A DNA stretch of 64,000 bases, taken from Candidatus Alloscybalousia sp. (GTDB lineage: Bacteria > Bacillota_I > Bacilli_A > RF39 > UBA660). The DNA lies in the NCBI GenBank assembly GCA_045595895.1, contig JAZOBJ010000035.1:25277-89276 (forward strand), given 5' to 3'. The notes under the pieces were generated by a model. That model was not told where the DNA came from. It searched no databases and was given only the letters and a program-made list of their open reading frames with translations. Each line of letters opens with the position of its first letter. Position 1 is the stretch's first letter. Position numbers and translations under genes: made by a program. Of the stretch, positions 13,870 to 38,299 are shown one piece after another.

Positions 13870-14961
13870 TTATTTTTGTCCTCTAGAAATATTTAATAAA
13901 ATACCAATTGATACTAGTGTTATTAATAAACTACTACCTCCATATGATAAAAACGGTAATGTTACTCCCGTTACTGGTATTAAACCAATTACTACCATTA
14001 GATTCATTACTGCTTGAATTAAAATTTGAAATATCATTCCAAATGCTAGATATTTAGGAAAATTTTCTTTACAGTTTAAAGCTATTTTTATACCTCGATA
14101 AAGAATTATTAAAAATAATGTACTTACTATTATTACTCCCAGTATTCCAAATTCTTCACTAATAATTGAAAAAATAAAATCGGTTTGGGGTTCTGGTAAA
14201 TAGAATTGTTTTTGTCTAGAGTTTAGAAATCCTTGACCTAAGAGTCCTCCTGGACCTATAGCATATAAACTTTGAATGATTTGAAATCCTGTGCCTAACG
14301 GATCTTTCCATGGGTCTAAAAAGGATGTTATACGGTCCATACGATATGGTGCTATAACGATTAAACCAATAATTCCAAATACACCTAATGCTCCTAAGCC
14401 AATGAAGAACTTCATATTTACTCCAGCTACAAATAACATTGCTAAAATACTTACTACAATAATCATACCAGTACCAAAATCTGGTTGAAGCATAATGAGA
14501 CCAAAGATAGTAAATAATACAATTAAAATTGGTATAACACCTTTTCTAATATCTTTTAAGAATTTGTTGTTGTTTGATAAATATTTTGCGGTGAAAATAA
14601 TAAGTCCAAGTTTGGCGAATTCGCTAGGTTGAATACCAAATGAACCTATCCCAAACCAACTTTGACTACCATTTCTAACAGTACCAATACCTGGAATTAG
14701 GACAAGTACTAATAAAAAGAGACAAACTACTAGTATTAAGTTTGTCTTTTTATAGTACCATGAATAATCTATTTTTGATATTCCAATTATTAATATGATT
14801 CCTATTACGATGAATAATGATTGTTGTTTAACATATTTAAAACTATCGTTAAACTTATACCCTGCCCAGATTGATGAAGCTGAATATATCATTACGAGTC
14901 CAAATAATATTAAGAGTATTACTGCGATAAAAAGAACTACGTCAATTTTTCGCTTTTTCAT
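13870..14961 (-). CDS. ftsW: SEDS-family peptidoglycan glycosyltransferase (FtsW/SpoVE/RodA)
   Basis: Ten-TM SEDS pattern, IYSASS motif, length 363 aa. Sits downstream of mraY as in dcw clusters. Confidence 0.85.
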   Translation of the reverse strand: MKKRKIDVVLFIAVILLILFGLVMIYSASSIWAGYKFNDSFKYVKQQSLFIVIGIILIIGISKIDYSWYYKKTNLILVVCLFLLVLVLIPGIGTVRNGSQSWFGIGSFGIQPSEFAKLGLIIFTAKYLSNNNKFLKDIRKGVIPILIVLFTIFGLIMLQPDFGTGMIIVVSILAMLFVAGVNMKFFIGLGALGVFGIIGLIVIAPYRMDRITSFLDPWKDPLGTGFQIIQSLYAIGPGGLLGQGFLNSRQKQFYLPEPQTDFIFSIISEEFGILGVIIVSTLFLIILYRGIKIALNCKENFPKYLAFGMIFQILIQAVMNLMVVIGLIPVTGVTLPFLSYGGSSLLITLVSIGILLNISRGQK

Positions 14962-14975
14962 TTAATCACTCTTTC

Positions 14976-15957
14976 TTATAACCATACTCCAAAGAAAATT
15001 CCACACATAGCTAGGATTAATCCTGTTACCCAGAATAATTTAACTATATCTTGTTCTTTCCATCCTAATTTTTCAAAATGATGATGAAGTGGTGACATTA
15101 AGAATAATTTTCTTTTAAATACATATAACCAAATTACTTGTAGTATTACACTTAATGTTTCAATTATAAATACACTTGCTACTACTGCTAAGGTAACTTC
15201 ACGATGTGTTAAGACTGCTATCGTTGACATTACACCACCTAGTGCCAAACTACCAGTATCACCCATAAATACTCTAGCTGGATGTGTATTAAATACTAAG
15301 AAACCAATAACACTTCCGGCTAATATAAATGTAAAAATACCCATATCTTCAAAACCAACTACCATTGAAATTAAACTAAAGGCAATGAATGCTATAGCTG
15401 ATAATCCTCCAGCTAAACCATCCAATCCATCAGTTAAGTTAACAGCATTTGAACCACCTACTAATAAGAATAGGATAAATAATCCATATAGCCATCCCAT
15501 TTCTATATTAATTCCAAGTGTTGATACAACAAGTGCTGTTTGACCACCATTACTAACATACATATAAAAGAATACTAAAGCAATTAGAACTTGACCTATT
15601 AATTTTTGAACCTCTGTTAGTCCCTCATTATTTCTTCTTTTGATACTTAAATAATCATCTAAAAAACCAATTACTGCATAACCAACGAATACTATTAATA
15701 CAATACCTAAGTTAGCTGTATATTCCATCTTACCAGTTATTAATAATATCAGTGTAGTAAGTAGTGTAGAAATAATAAATATTAGTCCTCCCATAGTTGG
15801 GGTTCCTTCTTTTTTTCTATGGCTTTCGCCTACAAAAACACTAATTCTCTGTCCTACATTTAATTTTTTCAAAGCAGGTATTAAAATTAGCCCTAGTACT
15901 ACAGAACATAAAAAACCAATCATGATTGCGAAAATTGATTTGGTTAGAATTAGCATA
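14976..15957 (-). CDS. mraY: Phospho-N-acetylmuramoyl-pentapeptide transferase MraY
   Basis: Start moved to MLILTKS (RBS AGGAGTG 5-6 nt upstream; a TATAAT box lies between the first and second ATG). Typical MraY TM pattern and DDxxD-like region. Confidence 0.9.
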
Positions 15958-16085
15958 TAATCACTCCTATTTCTGATAAACATTATACTACATTTTTTTA
16001 TTAATTCTAAGTATTATTATTTTTTTATACATAATTTTACATTAGCACTATTTCATTATATGGGATAAATTTTGTATTTATACTT

Positions 16086-18005
16086 TTAATCACTTCCTAG
16101 TAATAAGACAACTGTTTCATCTGCTGCTAGTCTTTCACCTGCTTTAGGACTTTGGGTAATTATCTTATCACCACTACCTGCATATTCTATCTTCCAGTTG
16201 GTTAGTAGTTTTTTAGCTTCTTTTATAGTCATTCCTTCTACATTTGGAACTTCATAATATATTTTATCTTCCCAAGTATATTCTTTTACTATTTGGCCTT
16301 CTTGTTTTGGGATATCAAGTGCATCAATAATGTCTAATAATACACGTCTAGCGATTGGAGTAGTTGTATAGCTTGATAAAAGTGCAGTATTTTTAGGGTT
16401 GTCTAACGCAATATATAATACTGCTTGCGGGTCATTAGCTGGTACTACTGACATGAAACTCATTATATAATTTCCTACTAAGTATCTTCCGTTTTCTACT
16501 TTCTGCGCTGTTCCTGTTTTGCCACCTACTCGGTATCCATCGATATATGCTGCTTTACCTCCACCTAATGCTACTACACTTTCTAGTGCTCTACGCATTT
16601 TATTACTAGTTTCTTCAGAGATGGTATTTCTAATTAGTGTTGGTTTATTTTCTTGAATTATGGTATTAGTTTCAGGCTCTAGTATTCCTTTAACCACATA
16701 TGGTTGATATAGTTTTCCACCATTTACTATTGATGATACAGCTGTTGTTTGTTGGATTGGAGTTACACTTACCCCTTGGCCAAAGGCAGTTGTTACTAGT
16801 TCTAGTTCTCCTACTTTATCAAGTGGAAAGATTATGCCTTCGGCCTCACCATTTAAGTCAATCCCAGTTTTTGAACCAAATCCAAATAAATCTAGATATG
16901 AAAACAATCTTTCTTTTCCTAACATTTGTCCGAGTTTTACGAATCCCGGGTTACAAGAATTTTGTAGAACCTGTAAATATGTTTGATCGCCATGTCCTCC
17001 AGCTTTCCAACATCCTATTCTAGCCCCACCTATATGTACGCTACCTGAATCATAAAAATGATCATTATCCATATCCATTAATCCTTCCTCTAAAGCAGCA
17101 GCAAATGTTGCGATTTTAAAAGTAGAACCTGGTTCGTATGATGCCCATATTGGTAGGTTACGGCTTAAAACTTCCATAGTTGAATCTTGATAATTATTTG
17201 GATCATATGTAGGTCTTGATGACATAGCGAGTATTTCACCAGTATTAGGGTCCATTACTACAGCAAGCGCCATATCTGGATTAAACGCTTTAACTGCATT
17301 ATCTAACTCTCTTTCTAAAGACATTTGAATATTATAATCAATAGTTAGTTGTAGGTTCATTCCACTAGTTGGGGCAACATATATATCTGATAATTCTAAT
17401 TTATTTCCTTTAGCATCCGAAAAATACTTTATTGCCCCACTTTCACCAGTTAGATATTTATCATATTCTAATTCAAGACCACTTAGTCCTTGATTGTCTA
17501 TCCCAACATATCCTAAAACATGTGCTAATGTGTTTCCGTATGGATAATATCTTTTTGCTTCTTTAACTAAATATACCCCTGGTAGTTCTAATTCATCTAT
17601 TTTATTTGCCACTTCATATGATAATCTTCTTCCTTCTGGGTGAACTCTTTCAATGGAAGTGATTTTATTTACATGAGTATCCATTTCTTCTTTTGTTACG
17701 CCTAGTATTTCTGCTAGTTTTTTGCTGGTATTATCCTTATCTTTAATTTGATTAGGTATTAATACTAGTGATGTTGTTGTAAGGTTGTCTGCTAGTATTA
17801 TGCCATTACGATCAAGTATTAATCCACGATTAGCTTCAATGGGTAAATCTCTACTCCATAAATCATTAGCTAGCAGTGATAATTTTTCGTAACTAATGAG
17901 TTGAATAAAAGCAACTCTTAATATTATAAATATAAACATCAATACAATAATATAAAATACTAATTTAATTCTAGAATCAATTCTTTTTAAAAACAATAGA
18001 CTCAC
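16086..18005 (-). CDS. ftsI: Class B penicillin-binding protein with C-terminal PASTA domain (PBP2B/FtsI/SpoVD-type)
   Basis: N-terminal TM. SxxK (GSTFK), SxN (SCN) and KTG (GKTGTAQ) motifs. One C-terminal PASTA domain. The start codon appears to be GTG or TTG. Confidence 0.85.
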   Translation of the reverse strand: MSLLFLKRIDSRIKLVFYIIVLMFIFIILRVAFIQLISYEKLSLLANDLWSRDLPIEANRGLILDRNGIILADNLTTTSLVLIPNQIKDKDNTSKKLAEILGVTKEEMDTHVNKITSIERVHPEGRRLSYEVANKIDELELPGVYLVKEAKRYYPYGNTLAHVLGYVGIDNQGLSGLELEYDKYLTGESGAIKYFSDAKGNKLELSDIYVAPTSGMNLQLTIDYNIQMSLERELDNAVKAFNPDMALAVVMDPNTGEILAMSSRPTYDPNNYQDSTMEVLSRNLPIWASYEPGSTFKIATFAAALEEGLMDMDNDHFYDSGSVHIGGARIGCWKAGGHGDQTYLQVLQNSCNPGFVKLGQMLGKERLFSYLDLFGFGSKTGIDLNGEAEGIIFPLDKVGELELVTTAFGQGVSVTPIQQTTAVSSIVNGGKLYQPYVVKGILEPETNTIIQENKPTLIRNTISEETSNKMRRALESVVALGGGKAAYIDGYRVGGKTGTAQKVENGRYLVGNYIMSFMSVVPANDPQAVLYIALDNPKNTALLSSYTTTPIARRVLLDIIDALDIPKQEGQIVKEYTWEDKIYYEVPNVEGMTIKEAKKLLTNWKIEYAGSGDKIITQSPKAGERLAADETVVLLLGSD

Positions 18006-18126: not shown

Positions 18127-18972
18127 CTACTTATTTTTTACTTTTATCTTTGCTGGTTTTTTATTATATAACACAAATTTTTGTGTATCTTGGTTTAAAT
18201 ATGCGATGCTATTTTTATCTCCTGCTGTTGTTTTTACATAGTATAAAGCTTGGTCAGCTTCTTCCTTCTTATGTAGTAATTCTTTCTTTTGAGCATCATA
18301 TATATCACTATCTCCTAAATATAAAGATAATCCTACAGAGATTGATAATGGTATACCTAATTCTTCACCTAATAATTTTATTTCTTTTTGAATTGTACAC
18401 ATTTTTTCTAATATACATGTTATTTGGGATGTTTCAAAAAATAATAAGAATTCATCTCCACCAATTCTACACACACAATCTTGAGCTGATCTTTTATTTT
18501 TATCAAGTATTTTAGCTACTCCTTGCAGAGCTTTATCACCAACCATATGTCCAAATGTATCATTTATTGTTTTAAAATCATTAACATCGCAGATAACAAT
18601 TACACATGATTTCCCATTTAATAATATATCTGTTTCTTTTGCATTAGCAGCAGCTACATTTCCAATTTTGGTAAGTGGGTCTTGTTTTAATTCTCTAGAC
18701 AATTTTTTATTCTCTACTAGGAATAGTGTAACCTCAATAAATTCTTCCTGGATTAGTTCATAGTCGTGGATTGTTATAAGTTGGGATTTTTTCTTCCAAT
18801 ATCTATTAGTTACTTTGTCATAATAAATATCTTTAGCTATTAAGTTCATTGTAAAGAAACTATCCTCAACTTTTTTACTAATATTTAATATTTTTCCTTG
18901 GTTACTTCTTAAAATAATAACTGTATTTAAGTATTCCAATTGAAATTCATATTTCATATTATCTTCCCCCAT
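18127..18972 (-). CDS. GGDEF-domain diguanylate cyclase, cytoplasmic
   Basis: RIGGDEFLLFF present, and the DxN/FKxxND motif upstream. No TM segment; N-terminal domain unassigned. Confidence 0.75.
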   Translation of the reverse strand: MGEDNMKYEFQLEYLNTVIILRSNQGKILNISKKVEDSFFTMNLIAKDIYYDKVTNRYWKKKSQLITIHDYELIQEEFIEVTLFLVENKKLSRELKQDPLTKIGNVAAANAKETDILLNGKSCVIVICDVNDFKTINDTFGHMVGDKALQGVAKILDKNKRSAQDCVCRIGGDEFLLFFETSQITCILEKMCTIQKEIKLLGEELGIPLSISVGLSLYLGDSDIYDAQKKELLHKKEEADQALYYVKTTAGDKNSIAYLNQDTQKFVLYNKKPAKIKVKNK

Positions 18973-19011: not shown

Positions 19012-19557
19012 TTATACTGTCATTAATTCATTTTCTTTTTCTTTAGTTTTATCTTCAATTAACTTATTATATTTATTAACTAAGTCTTGAACTTGATTTT
19101 CAAGTGATTTTTGTTCATCTTCAGAAATTTCTTGTTTTTCAATTTCTTCGTTAGCATCACGTCTAATATTTCTTATTGAAACTTTAGCATCTTCTGCCAT
19201 AGCTTTTACTTGTTTAGTTAATTCTTTTCTTCTTTCCTCAGTTAATATAGGAATTATAATACGTATTGTTTCACCGTCATTATTTGGTGTATATCCTAAG
19301 TTTGATTCAAAGATTGCTTTTTCAATAGCTCCTAGACATCCTCTATCGAATGGTTTAATTAATAGTTGTCTTGCTTCAGGAACTGATATTGTTGCAAGTT
19401 GTTTTAGTGGTGTTGGTACACCATAATATTCTGCACTAATCCCATCTAAACTTGAAGGATTTGCACGTCCTGCTCTAACAGTTGCAAATCTACTATCTAA
19501 ACTTTCTAAAGTTTTATCCATTTTTTCTTGTGTTAAATTAATAACATCTGTATTCAT
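19012..19557 (-). CDS. frr: Ribosome recycling factor
   Basis: 181 aa; DGISAEYYGVPTPLKQLATISVPEARQLLIKPFD is the Frr signature region. Confidence 0.9.
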   Translation of the reverse strand: MNTDVINLTQEKMDKTLESLDSRFATVRAGRANPSSLDGISAEYYGVPTPLKQLATISVPEARQLLIKPFDRGCLGAIEKAIFESNLGYTPNNDGETIRIIIPILTEERRKELTKQVKAMAEDAKVSIRNIRRDANEEIEKQEISEDEQKSLENQVQDLVNKYNKLIEDKTKEKENELMTV

Positions 19558-19659: not shown

Positions 19660-20535
19660 TTATCCGTTAATTTGGTTCATTACTTCTTCAGCAAAGTTTT
19701 CTTGTTTTTTTTCGATTCCTTCTCCTACTTCGTAACGAATCATACTTACGATTTCTGAACCATTAGCTGTTACATAATCTTTAACAGTTTCTTTATTTTC
19801 AGCTTTTATGAACACTTGGTCTTCTAAGCAAACTTCAGCATAGTATTTATTTACTTTTCCAACTAGAATACCATCGATTCTATCAGCTGGTTTTCCTTCT
19901 TTAAGAAGTTGTTCTCTCATAACATCTTTTTCACGTTCTAATACTTCTGTAGGAACTTCACTTGATTTTACATAAGCTGGATTCATAGCAGCAGCATGCA
20001 TAGCTACTTCTTTAGCTACTTCTTCATTAGATCCGTTTAATAGAACTAACGTAGCAATTCTTCCACCCATGTGTGAATATGTACCAAATACTTGGTTATC
20101 ATTTTTATTTAATCTTGTAAATCTTCTGAAAGAGATTTTTTCTCCAATTTGTGCAACTGCAGCAGCAACCATATCTGCTATAGTACCTTCATCAGTAGTA
20201 AGTGCTAAAGCACTATCCATATCATTAACATCACTGTTCATGATAGCATTTGCTAATTTATCAACAAATTCAACAAACTTTTCATTTTTTGCAACGAAGT
20301 CAGTTTCAGAGTTAACTTCAAGTATTAATGCTTCATTTCCGTTTACTACCATTTTTGTAGTACCTTCAGCAGCAATTCTTCCTTCTTTTTTAGCAGCTTT
20401 TGCCATACCATTTTCTCTTAACCAATCGATTGCTTTTTCCATATCTCCATTTGTTGCATCTAGAGCTTTTTTGCAATCCATCATTCCAGCTCCAGTTCTT
20501 TCTCTTAAATCTTTTACATCACTAGCACTAAACAT
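19660..20535 (-). CDS. tsf: Elongation factor Ts
   Basis: 291 aa. The N-terminal UBA-like MFSASDVKDLRERTGAGMMDCKKAL is the canonical EF-Ts start. Confidence 0.9.
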   Translation of the reverse strand: MFSASDVKDLRERTGAGMMDCKKALDATNGDMEKAIDWLRENGMAKAAKKEGRIAAEGTTKMVVNGNEALILEVNSETDFVAKNEKFVEFVDKLANAIMNSDVNDMDSALALTTDEGTIADMVAAAVAQIGEKISFRRFTRLNKNDNQVFGTYSHMGGRIATLVLLNGSNEEVAKEVAMHAAAMNPAYVKSSEVPTEVLEREKDVMREQLLKEGKPADRIDGILVGKVNKYYAEVCLEDQVFIKAENKETVKDYVTANGSEIVSMIRYEVGEGIEKKQENFAEEVMNQING

Positions 20536-20556: not shown

Positions 20557-21513
20557 TTATTTACTTAAAACTTCAACTAATTCAGCTTTTTTTAAGCTTG
20601 TGTATCCTTCGATACCTTTTTCTTTAGCCATAGCTTTTAATTCAGCTACTGTTAATTTAGAAAGATCAGTTGTTTCTTTTTTAACTTCTTCTTTCTTAGC
20701 TTCTTTTTTAGGAGCAGCTTTCTTTGTTTCTTTTACTTCTACTTCTTTAGTTTCTTCTTTAACTTCTTCTTTTACAGTTTCTTTCTTTGTTGCTTTACCT
20801 TTATCTTCATCAGTTAAATAATCAACCATTTCGCTACCATTAGCTTCACTAATTGCGTTAGCTAAAACTCCAATCATTAATTTAACACTTCTTACAGCGT
20901 CATCATTTCCTGGAATTACATAATCAACCATATCTGGATCACAGTTAGTGTCTACTACACCAAATACTGGGATTCCTAAAATACGTGCTTCTTTAATAGC
21001 GTTTTCTTCTTTACGAGGATCAACAATGATCATTGCTTCAGGCATTTTCTTCATTTCTCTGATTCCTCTTAAGTTTTTATTTAATTTTTCGTATTCTTTT
21101 TTGATTTGAATAACTTCTTTTTTAGGTAATAAATCGAAAGTTCCATCTTGTTCCATTTTTTCGATTTCTTCTAATCTTTTAATTCTAGTACGGATTGTTC
21201 TGAAGTTAGTTAATGTACCACCTAACCATCTTTCATTTACGAAATACATGTTAGTTCTGTTAGCACATTCTTCAGCTGCTTCTTGAGCTTGTTTTTTTGT
21301 ACCAACAAATAATACTTTACCACCGTTTTCAGCGATTTCCTTTAGTGCTTTGTATGCTTCTTCAATTTTCTTAGCTGTTTTTTGTAAATCGATTATATAA
21401 ATGTCATCTCTTGTTGTGAAGATGTATTCTTTCATTTTTGGATTCCATCTTCTTTTTTGGTGTCCGAAATGTACACCTGCTTCTAATAAATAATTCATTG
21501 AAACTACTGTCAT
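20557..21513 (-). CDS. rpsB: 30S ribosomal protein S2 with a roughly 70-aa Lys/Glu-rich and Rho_N/HeH-like C-terminal extension
   Basis: S2 core ([27 protein letters not shown]...). 318 aa versus about 245 typical. The tail ...[55 protein letters not shown] is shared with rplT. Confidence 0.9.
20615..20721 (-). repeat. Copy A of a near-identical roughly 110-nt DNA repeat encoding the shared C-terminal extension (rpsB 3' end)
   Basis: About 110 nt with a single mismatch relative to 21668-21783. Flanks about 80% similar over about 180 nt. Confidence 0.7.
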
Positions 21514-21558
21514 TATAATTTTCTCCTTTTCGTTTTAATCTTCTACTAATTTCTAAAA

Positions 21559-21585
21559 CTAACCACCTATTAGGCACTAGGTTAG
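21559..21585 (-). terminator. Hairpin (CTAACC...GGTTAG) then a U-run between rplT and rpsB; probable intrinsic terminator or attenuator
   Basis: Inverted repeat CTAACCACCTATTAGGCACTAGGTTAG followed on the minus strand by TTTTAG. Confidence 0.4.
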
Positions 21586-21609
21586 TAAATTCATTAATAT
21601 GTTTATTTT

Positions 21610-22170
21610 TTATTTATTTAATGCTTCAACTAGTTCAGCTTTTTTCATTGTAGTGTAACCTTCTACACCTTTTTCTTTAGCCATAGCTTTTAATTCAGCT
21701 ACTGTTAATTTAGAAAGATCAGTTGTTTCTTCTTTAACTTCTTCTTTCTTAGCTTCTTTTTTAGGAGCAGCTTTTTTAACTTCTTTTACTTCTACTTCTT
21801 GTTTAGAAATTTTTCCAGCTTTTCCATCTTTAGCTACTTTAACTAATTCAGCAAATGCTTTTGGATCGTTAATAGCGATTTCTGATAACATTTTTCTGTT
21901 AACTTCAACACCAGCTTTAGTTAAACCTTCAATAAATCTTGAATAACTAATTTCGTTAGCACGACATGCAGCGTTGATACGTGCGATCCATAATTTTCTG
22001 AAATCTCTTTTCTTTTGTTTACGATCTCTAAATGCATATTGTCCTGAATGCATTAATTGTTCTTTAGCAGTTTTGTATAATCTATGTTTACTACCAAAGT
22101 ATCCTTTTGCTTGTTTTAATACTTTTTTATGACGAGCTTTAGTAACAGCTCCGTTTTTTACTCTTGCCAT
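21610..22170 (-). CDS. rplT: 50S ribosomal protein L20 with the same roughly 68-aa Rho_N/HeH-like C-terminal extension
   Basis: L20 core [38 protein letters not shown]...[24 protein letters not shown], then ...[55 protein letters not shown]. 186 aa versus about 118 typical. Confidence 0.9.
21668..21783 (-). repeat. Copy B of the repeat encoding the shared C-terminal extension (rplT 3' end)
   Basis: See copy A; about 99% identity over about 110 nt. Confidence 0.7.
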
Positions 22171-22195: not shown

Positions 22196-22384
22196 TTAGA
22201 TAATATTCTTGAATCTGTTTTGATCTGCTTTACTTAAACCAGATTGTTTTCTTCCTTTTCTATTGAATGCTGCAGACTTACTACCAGTATTATGTCTTGT
22301 TCCTGGATGTCCAATAGTGATAGTTCCACTTTTTCTAACGTTAAGTACTTTTTTCATTCCTTTATGTGTTTTTAATTTTCCCAT
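22196..22384 (-). CDS. rpmI: 50S ribosomal protein L35
   Basis: 62-aa basic protein MGKLKTHKGMKKVLNVRKSGTITIGHPGTRHN...; position between infC and rplT is conserved. Confidence 0.8.
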   Translation of the reverse strand: MGKLKTHKGMKKVLNVRKSGTITIGHPGTRHNTGSKSAAFNRKGRKQSGLSKADQNRFKNII

Positions 22385-22932: not shown

Positions 22933-22949
22933 AAGAAACACCTCCATAA

Positions 22950-23063
22950 AATATAAAAAAGATGGACATAAAAGTCCACCTTTAAAAAACCTAATTAATA
23001 TAATTTTAATTATTATATCTAATGGCTCTTTACCCAAAGCTACTCGCTATCAGGTGGACTTTT
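22950..23063 (-). promoter_or_regulatory. infC-rpmI-rplT 5' leader with terminator hairpin (GGUGGAC-UUUUAU-GUCCAUC + U6) and an upstream complementary segment (AAAAGUCCACC); L20-type attenuator candidate
   Basis: Hairpin at 22961-22980 followed by a U-run directly upstream of the infC SD. The 11-nt segment at 23053-23063 is complementary to the 5' half of the terminator, giving mutually exclusive structures. Confidence 0.4.
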
Positions 23064-23092
23064 AATCGCTTTCCTTTTTTAATTTCTATTCA

Positions 23093-23121
23093 ATTATACA
23101 TAAATTATGTATAGTTGTCAA
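23093..23121 (-). promoter_or_regulatory. Consensus sigma-A promoter (TTGACA-17-TATAAT) for the infC operon
   Basis: Reverse strand reads TTGACAactatacataatttatgTATAAT in the 100-nt gap between the upstream gene stop and the infC leader. Confidence 0.6.
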
Positions 23122-23141: not shown

Positions 23142-25556
23142 TTACACAGTTTTTACTTTAATTATTGATTTAAATTCATCTTCTGTTAAACCAAGTTCAT
23201 CTAAAGTATAATATTCATCATTAGAAGCTACTGTAGTAATTATTGCATCTTGGAATTCAGGATCAATAATTACATCATCAGGAATTACATTTTCTTCAGG
23301 TGCTGTAGGTTTAGATGGTTCAACTGGTTGTGTTGGTTCAGATGGTGCTGGTTCAACCGGTTTGGTTTGTTCTGGTGTAGGAGCTGGTGTAGGAGCTGGT
23401 GTAGGTTGAGTTTGAGCATTTTGCTCTTGATTCTTTCTATTTACCTCTGCTTCTACATTTCTTCTATTTTCAGCATCTGCTTTTGCCGCATTATAACGAC
23501 TTGCAACTTCTCCGTCACTAGATGAAGCCCAACTTGAATTATATCCATTAGCATCACCTGCATAGAAATATTCATATGTTTGTGTATATACATTTTGTAA
23601 CATTGCTGCTCTTTCAGCTGCAGCTTTTTGTGCTTGTTCGTCAGCTTTTTGACTAGCTTCAGGTGTTGAAGCATCAACTTGACCAGTTGCTTTTTCTGTT
23701 TCTTTTCTTGCTTCTTCCATTGCTTGTTGTGGTGTAGTTTGGTTACCATTACTATCTGTAACTATAGCGTTAGGAGCAGTTAACTCTTTAGAAGTTGTTG
23801 TTTTACCAACTTCTTTTTTAGTTGTAACTTCATCTCCTTTTTGACCTTGTGTTACACCATGTTTACTATTATATTCCATTTGTAATTCTGAACGTTTAGC
23901 AGTTAAGAAATATACTTGATTTTCAGGATATAATCCTTGTTCTTTTAAATCATTATTAATTAACTCTAATAATTGACTAATTACATAAGTTCCTTCAGTT
24001 AGTTGATCAAATCTTGTATTAACATTATCCATTTGAGAAACAACTTGATCACCAATTTTTACATCACTTTCTGGATTTACTGTGATACTTCCAGCATAAG
24101 CTGCTTCAGAAATTGTATTCTCTGTTCTTAATGCATTAATATGTGAATTTGCTTGATTTAATTTTTCTATTTCACCACTACAGTAATCATCAGCAAAGCT
24201 TCTTGGCTTATCTGGTAATCTTAATGTATATCTAGAAGATGAAATATCATTTTCTTTTAAGAATTTAACTTCATCAAATTTATCAAATCCTTCAACTAAA
24301 TTTCTCATCATTAATTCATCAAATAAAGCTGTTTTAATTTCTAGTGTTTTATATACATCATTTTTAGTATCGTATACATCAATTGATTCTTTATCTTGAT
24401 ATTGATATATCTCAGAAACTATGCTGCAAGCAGGAAGGATAGTTCTTAATAAATATGATTTAGCACTATCTAATTCTGGATCCATAGTGTTTGCAAATTC
24501 ATTCCACCATTTTTTAATTTCTTGCATTTTTTCAAATGCTTCTTTTTCTTTTGTTTCGTCTTTTGCTAACACTTTCCATTCAGCAAACATTGCTTCTATT
24601 TCATTAACTTTAGCTAATTCTTTTTCATTAAAATTAATTAATTGTTCAATATTTAAATCACATTCATCACTACAAATATAGTATGTTCTAATACTATTCA
24701 TAGCATTATTAGCTGTATCGATAGTATTAACTGTATCGATATTAGCTCCACCTGTTAACGTTACATATTCATCATTTGTAAAATGTCCAAATCTTAATGA
24801 AAGTGAATATGCTTCCTCTGCAGTTAATCCAAAAGTACATTCAGGATTAGCAAGTCCATATTTTTCCATTTGTTCTTCAGTTAAAACAACTTTACCCCAA
24901 GATTCAGTTTCAAATTGAGAAAGCCAACTATGTGCTTTAACAGTTAAACTCTTTTGGTTTGTTTCAAGTGCGTTTTCACTATAGAATGCAAAATCTTTTC
25001 CATATATACTAGGAGTTTCTTGCAATTCTTCTATATTTGTATTATTAAATTCATTATTCTGTTTTGTTTCATTTTCTTTAGGTTTATGGTATTTATCATA
25101 AATTACTAATCCACCAACTCCTATTAAAGCAGCTAGTGCAATAAGTGCTGCTCTAGCAGCATCTTTTTTTTCGTTTTCTTCTTCTTCAATTTCAGGTGAA
25201 GAATTGATTATAGCGTCTGCTTTAGCGTAACTATCTTTAAATCTTTTATCGTTTACATCATACATGTTATAGTTTTCTATGTTTTCAAGATCTTGTCTAA
25301 TTTTATAGTTAATTGCATCAATTAATAATCCTCTATCTTCTATATCTATGTCTGTTAAATCAAATATTTGAGCAGTACCATCTGTATAGAAAACACATAT
25401 TATTTCTGAAGCAAGCTTCTTCTTATTGCCATCTAATCTATTATACTCTGCTTTATTACTACCAATAACAGCTTTTTCTATTGGCATGGATGGGCTATTT
25501 TTAAAATCTTCTACTGCAATTTGTAATTTTTCCATTTCGCTCATGATTATTAACAC
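23142..25556 (-). CDS. Hypothetical large membrane protein: about 130-aa cytoplasmic N-terminus, one TM, large extracellular region with a Pro/Thr-rich segment
   Basis: TM AALIALAALIGVGGLVIY. C-terminal QPTPAPTPAPTPEQTKPVEPAPSEPTQPVEPSKPTAPEE linker. No known domain recognised. Confidence 0.4.
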   Translation of the reverse strand: MLIIMSEMEKLQIAVEDFKNSPSMPIEKAVIGSNKAEYNRLDGNKKKLASEIICVFYTDGTAQIFDLTDIDIEDRGLLIDAINYKIRQDLENIENYNMYDVNDKRFKDSYAKADAIINSSPEIEEEENEKKDAARAALIALAALIGVGGLVIYDKYHKPKENETKQNNEFNNTNIEELQETPSIYGKDFAFYSENALETNQKSLTVKAHSWLSQFETESWGKVVLTEEQMEKYGLANPECTFGLTAEEAYSLSLRFGHFTNDEYVTLTGGANIDTVNTIDTANNAMNSIRTYYICSDECDLNIEQLINFNEKELAKVNEIEAMFAEWKVLAKDETKEKEAFEKMQEIKKWWNEFANTMDPELDSAKSYLLRTILPACSIVSEIYQYQDKESIDVYDTKNDVYKTLEIKTALFDELMMRNLVEGFDKFDEVKFLKENDISSSRYTLRLPDKPRSFADDYCSGEIEKLNQANSHINALRTENTISEAAYAGSITVNPESDVKIGDQVVSQMDNVNTRFDQLTEGTYVISQLLELINNDLKEQGLYPENQVYFLTAKRSELQMEYNSKHGVTQGQKGDEVTTKKEVGKTTTSKELTAPNAIVTDSNGNQTTPQQAMEEARKETEKATGQVDASTPEASQKADEQAQKAAAERAAMLQNVYTQTYEYFYAGDANGYNSSWASSSDGEVASRYNAAKADAENRRNVEAEVNRKNQEQNAQTQPTPAPTPAPTPEQTKPVEPAPSEPTQPVEPSKPTAPEENVIPDDVIIDPEFQDAIITTVASNDEYYTLDELGLTEDEFKSIIKVKTV

Positions 25557-25564
25557 TCCCTTTT

Positions 25565-26830
25565 TTATTTATTTCTTGTTTTACCTGTCATTGTATATCC
25601 TTGACTTAATAATGTTTTATCATTATAACTTGACCATTTATATGTTGTTTTAGCTTCTTGTAATAAAGTACGAGTTCTTACCTTATAATAACTTACATAT
25701 GCATAATATGGTTTTGAAGCTTCTTTTAATACTTGTACCATTGTTGTTTTTTGTTCTGTTCCATATAGTGGAATAGATCTATTTTCTGTTTCAGTACAAG
25801 TTGCAGCAATATTAGAATATTTAGTATATTTAGTTACTTTTCTAACTTGTTTTCTATATACTGGATATGGGTGATTAGTACATTCTTCGCTACATTCAGC
25901 ATTATTATCACCTTGAACAATCCATTGTGTATCTACAGTATTTGCTGGTGGATTGTATCCATATTCCCATTCATCAACATATTCCCAATCTGAATCAATT
26001 CTATAAATTGTTTCAGCATCTGCTACATATGTATAATTTGTACATACTGTATAATTATAAGTTCCTATTTGAACTGGTACAGTTTGTGTTACAGATGCAT
26101 ATTCATATTTTGGTTTAGTCATACCAATTTTAACATATTCAGTTCCTAAATCAACTACTTCTTTAGTATCAGTTAATCCGTATACAACACCATCATTAGC
26201 TTTCTTAATGTGTTTTGTCCAAGCTGACCATTCACTATATTGTGCTGTTATTGTTTTAGAATATTCATATTCTTTTTGTTTTACTGGTTTTACTGTAGGT
26301 TTAGTTGTTGGTTTTGGTGAAGTTGTTGGCTTTGAAGTTGGTTTTGGTGATACTGTTGGTTTAATTTCAGGTTTACCATCATCTTTTTCACATATATCAT
26401 ACTTACAATATGAATAGCATCCTAGATGAACTTCAATATAATCTTCTTCCTCACCACATTTTAAATTAACTTTCATTAAATACTCATTTTCTTTTTTCTC
26501 TAATGAAACATAAGATGCGGTTACATCACAAGAATCTCCATTTTTATCTGTAAATGGAATTAATAATTTCATGTCTAACATTTTTTGTAGAGTTATTGTA
26601 GTTTTATCTCCTACTTCTGCTGGTAATTTATCTGTTGTGAAATAAAGAATACCCGCATCTCTCATGTTGTATAAGTTAGCACTAAATATTTGATCTTTTA
26701 ATGGATTAATTGCTTCCATATTAGGCCATGGTACTAACCATCTTAAAAGTAACACAAAGATGATAATTAAAATTAATTTAAGTATGAAGTCTTTTATTAA
26801 ACTTCTTTTTTTGTTTTCTTCTGTATACAT
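25565..26830 (-). CDS. Hypothetical N-terminally anchored extracellular Cys-rich protein
   Basis: N-terminal TM (ILKLILIIIFVLLL). PT-rich linker PTVSPKPTSKPTTSPKPTTKPTVKP. Many Cys and aromatic residues. 8 nt downstream of the previous gene, so a likely operon. Confidence 0.4.
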   Translation of the reverse strand: MYTEENKKRSLIKDFILKLILIIIFVLLLRWLVPWPNMEAINPLKDQIFSANLYNMRDAGILYFTTDKLPAEVGDKTTITLQKMLDMKLLIPFTDKNGDSCDVTASYVSLEKKENEYLMKVNLKCGEEEDYIEVHLGCYSYCKYDICEKDDGKPEIKPTVSPKPTSKPTTSPKPTTKPTVKPVKQKEYEYSKTITAQYSEWSAWTKHIKKANDGVVYGLTDTKEVVDLGTEYVKIGMTKPKYEYASVTQTVPVQIGTYNYTVCTNYTYVADAETIYRIDSDWEYVDEWEYGYNPPANTVDTQWIVQGDNNAECSEECTNHPYPVYRKQVRKVTKYTKYSNIAATCTETENRSIPLYGTEQKTTMVQVLKEASKPYYAYVSYYKVRTRTLLQEAKTTYKWSSYNDKTLLSQGYTMTGKTRNK

Positions 26831-29995: not shown

Positions 29996-30955
29996 TTATT
30001 TATTATATTTTTTATAAAGTAATCTTTTCTCATAATTCGCCTTAGGTAATGGTTTATCATAATAATATCCTTGAATAATGTCACAATTAATACTTTTTAA
30101 ATAATTTAATTGATCCTCATTTTCTATTCCTTCGCATATTACTGTTTTACCTAGTTTTTTCATCATATCTATAGTCGATGATAAAATAATTCTGCCATTT
30201 TCAGTATTATATTTATCAACAAATGATTTATCCATTTTTATAATATCGAATGGCACTTGTAATAATAATTCTAATGAAGAATATCCCTTACCATAATCAT
30301 CTATTGATACTTTAATACCATATAGATGTAAAATTTCTACAAATTTATTAATTATTGTATAATCTTCAAGCGTTCCTGCTTCAGTAAATTCTATTTCAAT
30401 ATATTTGGTATCAATACCATAGCTAAAGATTGTACTAATAATTCTTTTAATAAAACTAAAATCTTCTTTTTGATCTATAAAATGATATCTTGAAAAATTA
30501 ATTGATACAGTTACTGGCTCAATTCCTTTTTCTAATTGTTCTTTAATATCTTTACATACTTTATTTAATATATAAAAATCTAATTCGCATACATATCCAT
30601 ATTGTTCTAATATTGGAATGAATTTATTAGGCGGCAAAATTTTTCCATCATTAGTAAACCACCTAGATAATGCTTCTGATGAACATATAGTGTTATTACT
30701 TATATCTACTTTAGGTTGATAATATGGTTCTATTTTTCTATCATTTAAATCTGCAAAAAAAGTTTTTTGTACTAATCTAGATAACTCTATTTTTTCTTTT
30801 ATTTCTTCAGCTAGTTCATCAACATTTACATTATTTATATTTAAGCGTGGAGAAATATCTGAAAATAATTTATTCAATTCCATAATCAAATCATTAATAT
30901 TAATATAATCATTTTCAAATTTTTGAAAAATTAATTTTAATAAATCATTATACAT
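29996..30955 (-). CDS. EAL-domain c-di-GMP phosphodiesterase
   Basis: EALSRW (EALxR), DDYGKGYSS (DDFGTGYSS) and KMDKSFV (KxDxxF) motifs. 319 aa, cytoplasmic. Confidence 0.85.
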   Translation of the reverse strand: MYNDLLKLIFQKFENDYININDLIMELNKLFSDISPRLNINNVNVDELAEEIKEKIELSRLVQKTFFADLNDRKIEPYYQPKVDISNNTICSSEALSRWFTNDGKILPPNKFIPILEQYGYVCELDFYILNKVCKDIKEQLEKGIEPVTVSINFSRYHFIDQKEDFSFIKRIISTIFSYGIDTKYIEIEFTEAGTLEDYTIINKFVEILHLYGIKVSIDDYGKGYSSLELLLQVPFDIIKMDKSFVDKYNTENGRIILSSTIDMMKKLGKTVICEGIENEDQLNYLKSINCDIIQGYYYDKPLPKANYEKRLLYKKYNK

Positions 30956-32810: not shown

Positions 32811-33003
32811 TGATATTCCCCCCCGTTAAAAACTTTTCGATTACTTTATCACATTTCTCAAAAAAAATCAATAAAAAAGGATTAAGCAAAAGCTTAACCT
32901 TTTAATTATTTATTTATTTTCTTGAACTACAGCTTGTACCACAGTTTAGTTCGGGATGCCATAATATAAATTTAAGTTAGATGACTTTTTTTACATCTAA
33001 ATG

Positions 33004-33303
33004 TTAATCACTAATTCTTACGTTAACCCCATCTATATTTTTATATACACGTTTTTCGTTTTTAGAAACCTTTTTTTCAATTTCGTCTGCTAAATCAAAA
33101 CCTAGCATTTCAGATAATCCCATTAAGTAAATAGCAATATCAGCTAATTCTTCATTCAAATCATCTTTTTTCTTTTTCCAAGCATCATATGCTTCAGACA
33201 CTTCCCCATACAGTAAACAAAATTCTTTATTTACATCTGTTGTATTAAATCCTTTGTTTAATTTATTTTGCCAAATATCTTTTTGAATCTTTTTTAATTC
33301 CAT
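33004..33303 (-). CDS. MazG-like all-alpha NTP pyrophosphohydrolase domain protein
   Basis: Start at MELKKIQ (AAGGAGG 6 nt upstream). CLLYGEVSEAYDAWKK...LNEELADIAIYLMGLSEMLGFDL carries the EExxE/D metal-binding helix pattern of MazG/YpjD-type enzymes. Confidence 0.55.
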   Translation of the reverse strand: MELKKIQKDIWQNKLNKGFNTTDVNKEFCLLYGEVSEAYDAWKKKKDDLNEELADIAIYLMGLSEMLGFDLADEIEKKVSKNEKRVYKNIDGVNVRISD

Positions 33304-34852: not shown

Positions 34853-35346
34853 TTTCTCACCAATTTCTTTACTTGACTTCTAACTTGTTCAATATTTGCT
34901 TCATGAGTATTTATAGCAATTACATCTATAAATTTAGAAGAATATTCCATAATTTCATCATATTTTTTATTTAATTCTTCATAATGATTTGCAATAACTT
35001 CATAATCACTTTTTTCATCATTTCTTCTTTTTAATAAAACATCTTTAGGAGCTGTTAAATAAATAATTTTAGCTCCAGCATTTTTATATGCAACTAATAG
35101 TTTTGTGTAATCTTCAAGGCTTAATTTACATTTATTCCTTATAACCGGTCCATAAACCATTTCACTAATAAATGATCTATCTAGCACCAATTCACTATCA
35201 TCTTCTAATAAAACTTTCATGTATTTTGAGAATAAATCCATGTTTTTTGAATCATAATCAAAATGATATTTTTTCATTCCATAACTTTGTAAATGTTCAA
35301 CTAAAGTTGTTTTACCTACACCATCTATACCTTCTATTATTAACAT
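34849..35346 (-). CDS. Thymidylate-kinase-like small P-loop (d)NMP kinase
   Basis: MLIIEGIDGVGKTT matches the Tmk EGxDGxGKST P-loop. About 165 aa, with a lid-like region. Confidence 0.55.
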   Translation of the reverse strand: MLIIEGIDGVGKTTLVEHLQSYGMKKYHFDYDSKNMDLFSKYMKVLLEDDSELVLDRSFISEMVYGPVIRNKCKLSLEDYTKLLVAYKNAGAKIIYLTAPKDVLLKRRNDEKSDYEVIANHYEELNKKYDEIMEYSSKFIDVIAINTHEANIEQVRSQVKKLVRK

Positions 35347-35366
35347 TAGAATTCCCCCTTTAACTA

Positions 35367-36128: not shown

Positions 36129-36139
36129 GCTTACCTCCT

Positions 36140-38286: not shown

Positions 38287-38299
38287 CTTAAATTCCTCC

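What the first reader, a model, noticed from the sequence alone, without database searches (positions are those of the whole stretch)
20557..21815. Ribosomal proteins S2 and L20 both carry the same roughly 70-aa Rho_N/HeH-like C-terminal extension, encoded by a near-identical DNA repeat
rpsB (318 aa) and rplT (186 aa) end with ...[15 protein letters not shown](K/E)[21 protein letters not shown](I/V)EGYT(S/T)(L/M)KKAELVE(V/A)L(S/N)K. The last about 35 aa look like the Rho N-terminal / HeH (SAP-LEM-like) helix-hairpin motif (compare Rho_N LTVAELRELAKELGIEGYSKLRKQELI), preceded by a Lys/Glu-rich linker. At the DNA level about 110 nt are identical but for one base (20615-20721 versus 21668-21783). 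That implies recent duplication or ongoing gene conversion between two essential genes 1 kb apart. An appended nucleic-acid-binding module on two different r-proteins is not standard.
Basis: seen in the sequence. Interest (0 to 1): 0.65.

Follow-up and report, generated by a model that had tools for sequence, protein, structure and literature searches.

The report
Shared SAP-like tail on S2 and L20
In this uncultured gut bacterium, two unrelated essential ribosomal proteins (S2 and L20) each end in the same small Rho-N/SAP-type nucleic-acid-binding domain on a flexible linker, and the neighbouring genes keep overwriting each other's tail by gene conversion; what the tail does on the ribosome was not tested.

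Summary
rpsB (20557-21513, minus strand, 318 aa) and rplT (21610-22170, minus strand, 186 aa) are intact ORFs. Their last 191 nt form the longest direct repeat in the window (91% identical), and a 108-nt core differs at one base. Both tails pass Pfam's Rho_N threshold. AlphaFold gives a helix / extended loop / helix fold behind a low-confidence Lys/Glu-rich linker.

It is not an assembly artefact:
- 79 of 81 S2 genes from species-level genomes of uncultured gut Bacilli carry the tail.
- So do 24 of 31 adjacent L20 genes.
- So do 49 of 80 metagenomic L20 genes, 24 of them with no rpsB nearby.

Ongoing gene conversion is well supported:
- S2 and L20 tails from the same genome are more alike than tails from different genomes.
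- A one-residue-deletion variant typical of L20 occurs in S2 only where L20 also has it.
- Against a sister strain about 2% diverged, 13 consecutive informative sites in the window's rplT (21685-21769) carry the S2 state, flanked by gene-specific sites. This marks a recent S2-to-L20 tract of 85-108 nt.

dN/dS below 1 indicates the tail is functional.

Function is inferred only: a flexibly tethered nucleic-acid-binding module, with RNA or DNA as ligand undecided. I found no published description. I rate it a new variant of known kinds, of moderate interest.

The parts
20557..21513 (-). rpsB, ribosomal protein bS2 with C-terminal extension (318 aa, stop 20557-20559)
   Evidence: ORF; Pfam Ribosomal_S2 2.3e-101 over aa 9-223 plus Rho_N over aa 283-314
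20668..20805 (-). S2 linker, aa 237-282, Lys/Glu-rich (16 K+R, 13 D+E)
   Evidence: composition; dN/dS 0.1-0.7 and indel-rich among relatives
20560..20667 (-). S2 Rho_N/HeH/SAP-like domain, aa 283-318
   Evidence: Pfam; tail profile and AF2 model
21610..22170 (-). rplT, ribosomal protein bL20 with C-terminal extension (186 aa, stop 21610-21612)
   Evidence: ORF; Pfam Ribosomal_L20 1e-47 over aa 3-109 plus Rho_N 3.6e-10 over aa 151-186
21721..21816 (-). L20 linker, aa 119-150, Lys/Glu-rich; AF2 pLDDT below 50 for aa 125-149
21613..21720 (-). L20 Rho_N/HeH/SAP-like domain, aa 151-186 (AF2 pLDDT about 80)
20557..20747 (-). direct repeat, copy in rpsB (191 nt, 91% identical to 21610-21800)
21610..21800 (-). 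direct repeat, copy in rplT
20614..20721 (-). near-identical core in rpsB (108 nt, one mismatch at 20679); donor of the recent conversion
21667..21774 (-). near-identical core in rplT = maximal extent of the recent S2-to-L20 conversion tract; minimal extent 21685-21769 (13 consecutive converted informative sites)
   Evidence: four-way comparison with sister-strain contig L084; clustering P 2.4e-7
21514..21609 (-). 96-nt rplT-rpsB spacer; no minus-strand promoter-like or terminator-like site found in it, so the two genes may be co-transcribed (inferred)
22948..23121 (-). context: consensus promoter (23093-23121) and a candidate L20-leader attenuator (22948-23077) upstream of infC-rpmI-rplT
   Evidence: Rfam RF00558 28.2 bits, below the gathering score of 58.7

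Best explanation
Both genes encode real, lineage-wide domain fusions. Each has a normal bS2 or bL20 core, then a flexible Lys/Glu-rich linker of about 30-45 aa, then a 36-aa helix / extended loop / helix domain of the Rho_N/SAP/HeH superfamily at the very C-terminus.

In this clade rplT lies directly upstream of rpsB on the same strand (infC-rpmI-rplT-rpsB-tsf-frr). The two tail-coding segments are therefore direct repeats 1,053 bp apart, flanking the essential rpsB core. Recombination between them survives only as non-reciprocal gene conversion, since a crossover would delete rpsB. Conversion has happened repeatedly and in both directions, which keeps the tails of one genome alike. The window carries a very recent S2-to-L20 tract of 85-108 nt.

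Shown: the ORFs, the domain family, the distribution, purifying selection, concerted evolution, and the tract.

Inferred: the function. I think the tail most likely acts as a flexibly tethered, low-specificity nucleic-acid-binding module displayed on the solvent faces of both subunits. From general ribosome structure, not tested here, the bS2 C-terminus lies near the 30S mRNA-exit/platform side and the bL20 C-terminal domain on the 50S back. On S2 I favour capture of single-stranded RNA (mRNA 5' regions, or nascent or own rRNA during assembly), as shown for the isolated C-terminal Rho-N motif of plant RHON1. Binding of AT-rich DNA as a SAP domain is the close alternative.
For: Fusion is real:
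- Both ORFs are continuous, with Pfam S2 + Rho_N and L20 + Rho_N.
- All but one of the top 120 S2 homologues and all of the top 120 L20 homologues carry Rho_N in precomputed annotation.
- 79 of 81 S2 genes, and 24 of 31 adjacent L20 genes, across 80 species-representative genomes plus the window hit the tail HMM, always at the C-terminus.
- 49 of 80 metagenomic L20 loci carry it.
- Independent assemblies L081, L082 and L084 show the same gene order and domains.

Fold:
- The AF2 tail model has pLDDT 84, with helix 10-20, a loop, and helix 30-38.
- Foldseek top hits are Rho 1a8v and the SAP domains of Hcc-1, FAN1 and Tho1, with TMq 0.7-0.8.
- The PDB profile hits Ku70 SAP and Rho.
- In full-length L20 the linker has pLDDT below 50 and the domain about 80.

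Selection: dN/dS of the domain is 0.04-0.5, against 0.01-0.19 for the cores and 0.1-0.76 for the linkers.

Conversion:
- Within-genome S2-L20 domain identity is 0.70 against 0.575 between genomes; 0 of 20,000 permutations reach it.
- The two tails are reciprocal nearest neighbours in L001, L002, L014, L018 and the window.
- Identical codons at amino-acid-identical sites reach 0.90 in the window, against a 0.66 background.
- Genome-specific residues and linker stretches are shared by the paired S2 and L20 of close relatives.
- The one-residue-shorter 'type B' loop occurs in 12 L20 genes but only 7 S2 genes, always alongside a type-B L20. All 48 S2 tails outside the clade are type A.
- Tract boundaries differ between L081, L082, L084 and the window.
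- 13 consecutive sites show window L20 = S2 state while sister-strain L20 differs, flanked by 12 + 8 gene-specific sites (P 2.4e-7).

Function:
- The last 40 aa of RHON1 (a Rho-N motif) bind ssRNA, including 16S and 23S fragments (PMC3458557).
- SAP domains bind DNA (1h1j title).
- The 'KK' before helix 2 is invariant.
- In some relatives the same position on S2 (L079) or L20 (L007, L009, L016, L019, L022, and 20 of 80 metagenomic loci) carries a Lys/Ala/Thr-rich, histone-H1-like tail instead. This is what one expects if the selected property is generic polyanion binding.
Against: No binding or localisation data exist; the ligand is inferred by homology only.

The domain is barely basic (net +1) and the linkers only +2 or +3. 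That is weak for a non-specific nucleic-acid binder and compatible with a protein-protein role.

Foldseek E-values are not significant for so small a domain.

The positions of the bS2 and bL20 C-termini on the ribosome come from general knowledge, not from a test here.

The NJ tree used to count independent conversions has no support values.

The permutation test does not correct for shared ancestry.

The polarity of the window tract rests on a single sister contig. Import of a foreign segment into L084's rplT could mimic part of the pattern, though it would not explain why the window's rplT is identical to its own rpsB.
Confidence: 0.7

Rival explanations
1. Assembly artefact: one of the two tails was created by repeat collapse or chimeric joining in the metagenome assembly, and the real gene lacks it.
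For: Metagenome assemblies of this very locus do produce artefacts: P0001, P0003, P0121 and P0123 have internally duplicated cores. Tiny low-coverage contigs join the tail to unrelated sequence (L085, L086).
Against: The architecture is found in 79/81 S2 and 24/31 + 49/80 L20 genes from independent samples and assemblers. The two copies differ at 17 positions, including 12 gene-specific sites that are conserved in a sister strain. dN/dS is below 1.
Confidence: 0.02
2. No gene conversion: the tails look alike within a genome only because both are under the same purifying selection, with the strong codon bias of a 27% GC genome.
For: Codon bias is strong. Unrelated S2/L20 pairs already share 66% identical codons at amino-acid-identical sites. 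In several genomes (L003-L006, L012) the tails are not homogenised.
Against: Shared selection cannot explain any of the following: genome-specific substitutions and a shared indel state; identity extending into the fast-evolving, indel-rich linker; 90-93% identical codons in the window, L002 and L010; or 13 contiguous sites switching to the S2 state since a split of about 2% divergence, while flanking gene-specific sites stay put.
Confidence: 0.04
3. The tail is a protein-protein interaction module rather than a nucleic-acid binder. It might recruit a factor, RNA polymerase, NusA/NusG or a chaperone, or link ribosomes to each other (hibernation or polysome packing). MANF/CDNF SAP-like domains, for comparison, bind the BiP ATPase domain.
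For: The domain is nearly neutral (net +1). Foldseek hits include the MANF/CDNF SAP-like domains in complex with BiP (6h9u, 9h0c). The same module on both subunits would suit a bridging role.
Against: The closest sequence relatives are Rho and Ku70 SAP. An isolated Rho-N motif binds RNA. Replacement by Lys/Ala/Thr-rich basic tails in relatives fits polyanion binding better than a specific protein contact.
Confidence: 0.2
4. The tail is an essentially neutral passenger: a mobile low-cost module that spreads among highly expressed genes by illegitimate recombination and conversion, with no role on the ribosome.
For: The Rho_N/SAP module is highly promiscuous: 10,121 representative proteins at E <= 1e-3, in many architectures and repeat numbers. 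It has been lost or replaced in some lineages.
Against: It is retained at the exact C-terminus of two essential, highly expressed proteins across at least 80 species. dN/dS is 0.04-0.5 and the domain is as conserved as the L20 core among close relatives. Where lost, it is replaced by another extension rather than by nothing in 20 of 27 cases.
Confidence: 0.07

Closest known systems
N-terminal helix bundle of transcription termination factor Rho (Pfam PF07498, Rho_N; e.g. PDB 1a8v, 7oqh)
   Same: Best Pfam family for both tails, above the gathering score. M. tuberculosis Rho aligns over 34 residues with the tail profile. The predicted helix / extended loop / helix fold is the same, and the best Foldseek match is 1a8v (TMq 0.78, rmsd 1.5 A).
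   Different: In Rho the module is N-terminal and packs against the OB-fold RNA-binding domain, followed by the RecA-type ATPase. Here it is isolated, C-terminal, on a long flexible linker, and attached to ribosomal proteins. Nothing else of Rho is present.
Arabidopsis RHON1 C-terminal Rho-N motif (PMC3458557)
   Same: An isolated Rho-N-type motif of about 40 aa at the extreme C-terminus of an unrelated protein, preceded by a charged region. It is shown to bind ssRNA, including 16S and 23S rRNA fragments. This is the best functional analogy.
   Different: RHON1 is a plant chloroplast RNase E partner, not a ribosomal protein. No direct sequence comparison with it was run here.
SAP domain (PF02037; Ku70 C-terminus 1jjr/1jeq, Tho1, SAF-A, FAN1) and HeH/LEM (PF12949)
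   Same: Same superfamily motif (L..ELK..A...G..G....KK.ELI..L). Ku70 SAP is the best PDB sequence hit of the tail profile (6e-10). 'Type B' L20 tails in relatives are scored as SAP in precomputed Pfam annotation. 107 of 137 best profile hits also match SAP.
   Different: The window's two copies are below the SAP and HeH gathering scores. SAP and HeH are mainly eukaryotic chromatin or DNA-binding modules; DNA binding is not shown here.
tufA/tufB gene conversion in Salmonella (PMC5485169) and long-lasting concerted evolution of prokaryotic paralogues (PMC6053082)
   Same: Non-reciprocal, contiguous conversion tracts between repeated segments of essential translation genes on one chromosome. Tracts cannot run past the end of homology, which matches the persistent gene-specific sites at the 3' end of both tails.
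   Different: Those cases involve whole-gene paralogues of about 1.2 kb. Here only a module of about 190 nt is homologous, and it is shared by two otherwise unrelated genes. rpsB and rplT are not mentioned in PMC6053082 (0 occurrences of either term in its text).
Lineage-specific Lys/Ala-rich (histone-H1-like) C-terminal extensions of bacterial nucleic-acid-binding proteins
   Same: In relatives the same C-terminal position of L20 (L007, L009, L016, L019, L022; 20 of 80 metagenomic loci) or S2 (L079) carries such a tail instead of the folded domain.
   Different: The window's tails are polyampholytic linkers plus a folded domain, not simple basic repeats. The comparison with H1-like tails rests on composition only.

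Membership tests
Rho_N (Pfam PF07498) | Sequence score at or above the curated gathering threshold (24.9 bits) | tested here: met
   33.9 bits (S2 aa 283-314) and 40.1 bits (L20 aa 151-186); all 137 best profile hits scanned also match Rho_N
Rho_N (Pfam PF07498) | Helix / extended loop / helix fold | tested here: met
   AF2 tail model pLDDT 84, H10-20 / loop / H30-38; same in the full-length L20 model; Foldseek best hit Rho 1a8v, TMq 0.78, E-value not significant
Transcription termination factor Rho (the protein) | Rho_N followed by an OB-fold RNA-binding domain and a RecA-type hexameric ATPase | tested here: not met
   Only Ribosomal_S2 or Ribosomal_L20 plus Rho_N are detected; the domain is C-terminal and terminal
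HeH/LEM (Pfam PF12949) | Score at or above the gathering threshold (28.9 bits) | tested here: not met
   27.0 and 28.0 bits; just below threshold, so a superfamily relative rather than a member by Pfam's rule
SAP (Pfam PF02037) | Score at or above the gathering threshold (23.9 bits) | tested here: not met
   17.1 and 18.3 bits for the window copies; type-B L20 tails of relatives do carry PF02037 in precomputed annotation
Rho_N/SAP/HeH superfamily | Binds nucleic acid (ssRNA for Rho-N of RHON1; dsDNA for SAP/HeH) | not testable with these tools
   Only homology and the invariant KK before helix 2
Ribosomal protein bS2 (PF00318) and bL20 (PF00453) | Full-length match to the family profile, in the conserved operon context | tested here: met
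   S2 2.3e-101 (profile 1-215/216); L20 1e-47 (1-107/107); infC-rpmI-rplT-rpsB-tsf-frr order
Concerted evolution by gene conversion | Paralogous segments more similar within genomes than between genomes, including at synonymous sites | tested here: met
   0.70 vs 0.575 identity, 0 of 20,000 permutations reach it; identical-codon fraction 0.76 overall and 0.90 in the window vs 0.66 background; not met in L003-L006 and L012, so it is episodic
Concerted evolution by gene conversion | Contiguous tract bounded by unconverted gene-specific sites, polarised by a close outgroup | tested here: met
   13 consecutive converted sites at 21685-21769, flanked by 12 (3') and 8 (5') gene-specific sites shared with L084; P 2.4e-7 for the clustering
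ER/K single alpha-helix linker | Confidently predicted long isolated helix | tested here: not met
   L20 aa 125-149 have pLDDT below 50 and are mostly coil in the AF2 model; read as a flexible linker
L20 leader (Rfam RF00558), context only | Score at or above the gathering threshold (58.7 bits) | tested here: inconclusive
   28.2 bits, full-length model match at 22948-23077 (-), E 0.006 in 1.8 kb, right after a consensus promoter and containing a terminator-like hairpin

The most novel reading that the evidence does not exclude
The Rho-N/SAP tails on one protein of each subunit physically tether ribosomes, or assembling subunits, to the AT-rich chromosome or to the transcription complex. That would enforce nucleoid-associated, transcription-coupled translation or co-transcriptional ribosome assembly in this small-genome gut lineage. 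It would be a ribosome-borne replacement for functions supplied elsewhere by bS1, NusG/NusA bridges or Rho. The two tails would be kept interchangeable by gene conversion because they must recognise the same ligand.
Probability: 0.15. Interest if true: 0.8.

Novelty: new variant of a known kind. Interest (0 to 1): 0.55.

Why it matters
Bacterial ribosomal proteins are usually treated as near-invariant. Here a folded, promiscuous nucleic-acid-binding module has been fixed on one protein of each subunit throughout a large group of uncultured gut Bacilli. If the tails bind mRNA, rRNA or DNA, they change how these ribosomes find messages, assemble, or sit in the cell, and cryo-EM or in-cell tomography could see them.

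In evolutionary terms, this is a clean natural example of concerted evolution confined to a 190-nt module shared by two otherwise unrelated essential genes, with strain-level tracts that can be dated.

In practical terms, the repeat is a trap for metagenome assemblers and for rpsB/rplT-based phylogenetic markers: the tail should be trimmed before tree building.

Tried and rejected
1. 'L20 acquired its tail only after rplT became the neighbour of rpsB'. The genome scan suggested this, because the adjacency clade is monophyletic and no L20 was seen elsewhere. The metagenome scan rejected it: 24 L20 genes carry the tail with no rpsB within at least 1 kb downstream.

2. My first regex typing of S2 tails wrongly labelled many as 'noHeH' in the tree. 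I replaced it with HMM-based typing.

3. The tail-profile search of 1.84 billion representatives was meant to list other ribosomal proteins carrying the tail. The top 150 were dominated by multi-repeat Rho_N/SAP proteins, so it gave no architecture census. Two Ribosomal_L7Ae matches in it were not followed up.

4. The third homologue search, with a basal L20 core, again returned only close tail-bearing L20s because the core is too conserved.

5. Short proteins that join the tail to a lipoprotein signal peptide or to DUF4139 (P0387, P0366, P0383) sit on contigs under 1 kb at about 1x coverage, so I treat them as chimeras.

6. The long S2 and L20 homologues P0001, P0003, P0121 and P0123 are internal-duplication artefacts, not multi-tail proteins.

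7. No other ORF in the window, or in about 1.3 Mb of related loci, carries the tail.

8. Rfam at gathering thresholds finds no regulatory RNA in or between the two genes. The repeat is in frame and under protein-level selection, so an RNA-element explanation was dropped.

9. The ER/K single-helix linker idea is not supported by AF2.

10. Literature searches for Rho_N or SAP domains on bacterial ribosomal proteins found nothing relevant.
Full report
**Observation.** The window (27% GC) carries the following genes on the minus strand:
- infC (22399-about 22940)
- rpmI (22196-22384)
- rplT (21610-22170, 186 aa)
- rpsB (20557-21513, 318 aa)
- tsf (19660-20535)
- frr (19012-19557)

Both rplT and rpsB are uninterrupted ORFs. 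Their 3' ends form a direct repeat, 20557-20747 against 21610-21800, of 191 nt at 91% identity. It is the longest direct repeat in the 64 kb. Inside it, 108 nt (20614-20721 against 21667-21774) differ at a single base (20679 / 21732, Lys/Glu). The last 57 nt carry 12 differences. tblastn with either tail finds only the other copy in the window.

**Anatomy.** Pfam places Ribosomal_S2 on aa 9-223 and Rho_N on aa 283-314 of S2. It places Ribosomal_L20 on aa 3-109 and Rho_N on aa 151-186 of L20. Both Rho_N scores exceed the gathering cut-off. HeH is just below its cut-off and SAP further below. Between core and domain lies a Lys/Glu-rich polyampholyte linker:
- S2: 46 aa, 16 basic and 13 acidic residues
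- L20: 32 aa, 10 basic and 8 acidic residues

The domain itself has net charge +1. AlphaFold2 on an alignment of 17 tails gives helix 10-20, an extended loop, and helix 30-38 (pLDDT 84). In full-length L20 the linker has pLDDT below 50 and the terminal domain about 80. This indicates an independently folded module on a flexible tether. Foldseek's best PDB matches are the Rho RNA-binding domain (1a8v) and SAP domains (Hcc-1, FAN1, Tho1), with TMq 0.7-0.8. The E-values are not significant for so small a query. A sequence profile of the tails hits Ku70 SAP (6e-10) and M. tuberculosis Rho (9e-8) in the PDB. Against 1.84 billion representative proteins the profile finds 10,121 hits. All 137 of the best hits that I scanned are Rho_N, 107 also match SAP and 45 match HeH. 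The tail therefore belongs to a widespread, promiscuous Rho_N/SAP/HeH module family.

**Distribution.**
- All of the 120 best L20 homologues and 119 of the 120 best S2 homologues carry the Rho_N annotation.
- A scan of one genome per GTDB species returned 80 loci. All are uncultured gut MAGs labelled Bacilli, Tenericutes, Mycoplasmatota or Erysipelotrichaceae. Examples are Clostridium sp. CAG:1193, Acholeplasma sp. CAG:878, Ca. Coprosoma and Ca. Fimihabitans.
- With the window included, 79 of 81 S2 genes hit the tail HMM at their exact C-terminus. Of the two exceptions, one is cut by a contig end (L074) and one carries a Lys/Ala/Val-rich tail instead (L079).
- rplT sits directly upstream of rpsB in 31 of the 81. 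These form one clade in an NJ tree of S2 core + EF-Ts; the tree has no support values. In that clade 24 L20 genes carry the domain, 5 have Lys/Ala/Thr-rich H1-like tails, one is short, and one is interrupted by masked bases.
- A metagenome scan with the L20 core gave 80 more loci. Of these, 49 L20 genes carry the domain, 24 of them with no rpsB within at least 1 kb downstream. Another 20 carry K/T/A-rich extensions, and 7 are ordinary proteins of 116-118 aa.

The L20 tail is therefore not a by-product of adjacency, an idea I held at first and now reject. Independent assemblies of close relatives (L081, L082, L084) show the same operon and domains. Assembly collapse is excluded.

**Selection.** For close orthologous pairs, dN/dS of the 36-aa domain is 0.04-0.5. 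The cores give 0.01-0.19 and the linkers 0.1-0.76. Among close L20 relatives the domain is nearly as invariant as the core, while the linker is full of indels. The domain is under purifying selection.

**Concerted evolution.** Across the 24 genomes with both tails:
- Within-genome S2-L20 domain identity averages 0.70, against 0.575 for S2 and L20 taken from different genomes. No permutation out of 20,000 reaches this. The test ignores phylogeny.
- The two tails are reciprocal nearest neighbours in L001, L002, L014, L018 and the window.
- Because codon bias is strong, I compared codons only at amino-acid-identical sites. The background is 66% identical, within-genome pairs give 76%, and the window, L002 and L010 give 90-93%.
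- A discrete character supports this. A 'type B' variant with a one-residue-shorter loop (…I.VTGMKKAEII…) occurs in 12 L20 genes but in only 7 S2 genes, and each of those 7 genomes also has a type-B L20. All 48 complete S2 tails outside the clade are type A. This implies L20-to-S2 transfers. On the NJ topology there were at least two.
The pairs share genome-specific residues and even linker stretches, for example P0125/P0012, P0224/P0023 and P0197/P0061. The last few residues stay gene-specific: S2 ends …E[VI]L[SN]K and L20 ends …[EA]AL[QN]K.
- At the DNA level the near-identical blocks have different boundaries in L081 (about 147 nt with one mismatch, extending further 3'), L082, L084 and the window. 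These are separate events.

**A dated event in the window.** Contig L084 (ENA ERZ15610159) differs from the window at 18 of 957 positions in rpsB and 19 of 561 in rplT. Thirteen of the 19 rplT differences fall in one 85-nt stretch. At all 13, the window's rplT has the base found in both rpsB genes, while L084's rplT has another base. Twelve gene-specific sites on the 3' side (21617-21666) and eight on the 5' side (21801-21809) are unchanged in both genomes.
- Probability of the clustering by chance: 2.4e-7
- Probability that all 13 changes land on the S2 state by chance: 6e-7

The simplest reading is an S2-to-L20 conversion tract. Its minimum extent is 85 nt (21685-21769) and its maximum 108 nt (21667-21774), and it arose after the two strains split. 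The retained gene-specific 3' ends fit the experimental picture from tufA/tufB, in which events that run off the end of homology are aborted (PMC5485169). Because the repeats are direct and flank the essential rpsB core, a crossover would be lethal. Only non-crossover products can be seen. That last point is inference.

**How it probably works.** The existence of the module, its conservation and its exchange are shown. Its function is inferred. Three lines point to nucleic-acid binding:
- Family membership. This covers Rho, SAP and Ku70, plus the isolated C-terminal Rho-N motif of RHON1, which binds ssRNA including rRNA fragments (PMC3458557).
- The invariant Lys-Lys before helix 2.
- Repeated replacement of the module, at the same position on both proteins, by histone-H1-like basic tails.

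From general ribosome structure, not tested here, the C-terminus of bS2 lies on the solvent side of the 30S near the mRNA exit and platform region, where bS1 docks in other bacteria. The C-terminal domain of bL20 lies on the solvent face of the 50S. A 30-45-aa flexible linker would let the domain sweep several nanometres from each. I favour capture of single-stranded RNA (mRNA leaders, or nascent rRNA during assembly). Binding of AT-rich DNA, which would mean nucleoid tethering, is a close second. A protein-partner role cannot be excluded, because the domain is nearly neutral. Whether these genomes lack rho or rpsA could not be checked; neither gene is among the window ORFs I scanned against Pfam, which left ORFs beyond 51985 unscanned.

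**Comparison and novelty.** The module is a member of Pfam Rho_N by score and by fold. It is not Rho, and the window copies fall below the Pfam thresholds for HeH and SAP. The evolutionary process is ordinary gene conversion, but confined to a module of about 190 nt shared by two otherwise unrelated essential genes. The published bacterial cases I found concern whole-gene paralogues (tuf, rRNA operons, and the 26 genes of PMC6053082). Five literature searches found no description of Rho_N, SAP or HeH domains on bacterial bS2 or bL20. The library is incomplete, and automated Pfam annotation already labels these proteins. I therefore rate it a new variant of known kinds, with interest 0.55. The sequence-level and evolutionary findings (the fusion, its spread and the gene conversion) are well supported, and the functional question is open but testable.

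**Limits.**
- No read data and no experimental data were available.
- The NJ tree is unsupported.
- The polarity of the window's tract rests on one sister contig.
- S2 and L20 could be paired only when they lie on the same contig, so the role of adjacency in conversion frequency is untested.

Noticed in passing
window 22948-23121 (-): A perfect sigma-70 consensus promoter (TTGACA-17-TATAAT, 23093-23121) is followed by a sub-threshold but full-length match to the Rfam L20 leader (22948-23077; 28.2 bits vs 58.7 gathering). The match contains a terminator-like hairpin at 22958-22983. This is probably an L20-sensing attenuator. The mechanical TTG start of infC at 23037 would then lie inside the leader and be too far upstream.
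   Followed up: partly
L079:5938-7164 (S2); L007, L009, L016, L019, L022 (L20); 20 of the loci L087-L166: In some relatives the folded tail is replaced, at the same C-terminal position, by a long Lys/Ala/Thr/Val-rich extension that resembles histone H1 (for example KKTTTKKATAK repeats). This happens on both S2 and L20.
   Followed up: partly
L-loci and proteins P0391-P0498: The 'type B' L20 tails, with a one-residue-shorter loop (…VTGMKKAEII…), are annotated as Pfam SAP rather than Rho_N. The same position of the same protein family therefore crosses a Pfam family boundary.
   Followed up: partly
window 23142-25556 (-) and 25565-26830 (-): Two large ORFs upstream of the infC operon (804 and 421 aa) have no Pfam match at E <= 1e-5. 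The 804-aa protein has a Pro/Thr-rich stretch near its C-terminus. A homologous ORF of more than 800 aa sits at the same place in L081 and L084.
   Followed up: no
proteins P0001, P0003, P0121, P0123: These metagenome gene calls for L20 and S2 have internally duplicated cores (293, 239, 524 and 452 aa). They look like assembly artefacts in this locus, not biology.
   Followed up: yes
L085 (886 bp, coverage 1.2), L086 (911 bp); proteins P0387, P0366, P0383, P0379: Short contigs join the S2/L20-type linker and tail to a lipoprotein signal peptide, a DUF4139 C-terminus or a macro-domain-like fragment. They are most likely chimeric assemblies seeded by the repeat. Real transfer of the module to other genes is not excluded.
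   Followed up: partly
window 20722-20727: The window's rpsB has a cluster of four unique base changes (ACAAAG where L084 rpsB and both rplT copies have GTTAAA), right at the 5' edge of the conversion tract. It may be a second micro-conversion from the repetitive Lys/Glu-coding linker.
   Followed up: no
window 18127-18972, 29996-30955, 30967-32889 (all -): Three cyclic-di-GMP genes (GGDEF, EAL, and GGDEF with a periplasmic-binding-protein-like sensor) sit alongside peptidoglycan genes (MraY 14976-15983, FtsW 13870-14961, PBP 16086-18005). The organism is therefore walled and uses c-di-GMP, even though several relatives carry Tenericutes or Mycoplasmatota labels.
   Followed up: no
window 33263-38794 (-): A run of genes has weak nucleoside-metabolism and radical-SAM matches: a PfkB-like C-terminus, a dNK/thymidylate-kinase-like protein, two ORFs without strong hits, a radical SAM protein and an NT5C nucleotidase. 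It may be a nucleoside-modification or salvage cluster.
   Followed up: no
window 20699-20715 and 21752-21768 (+): The terminator-like hairpins reported on the plus strand are the same repeated sequence (GCTTCTTTTTTAGGAGC) antisense to both tails. They are a by-product of the repeat, not evidence of terminators.
   Followed up: yes
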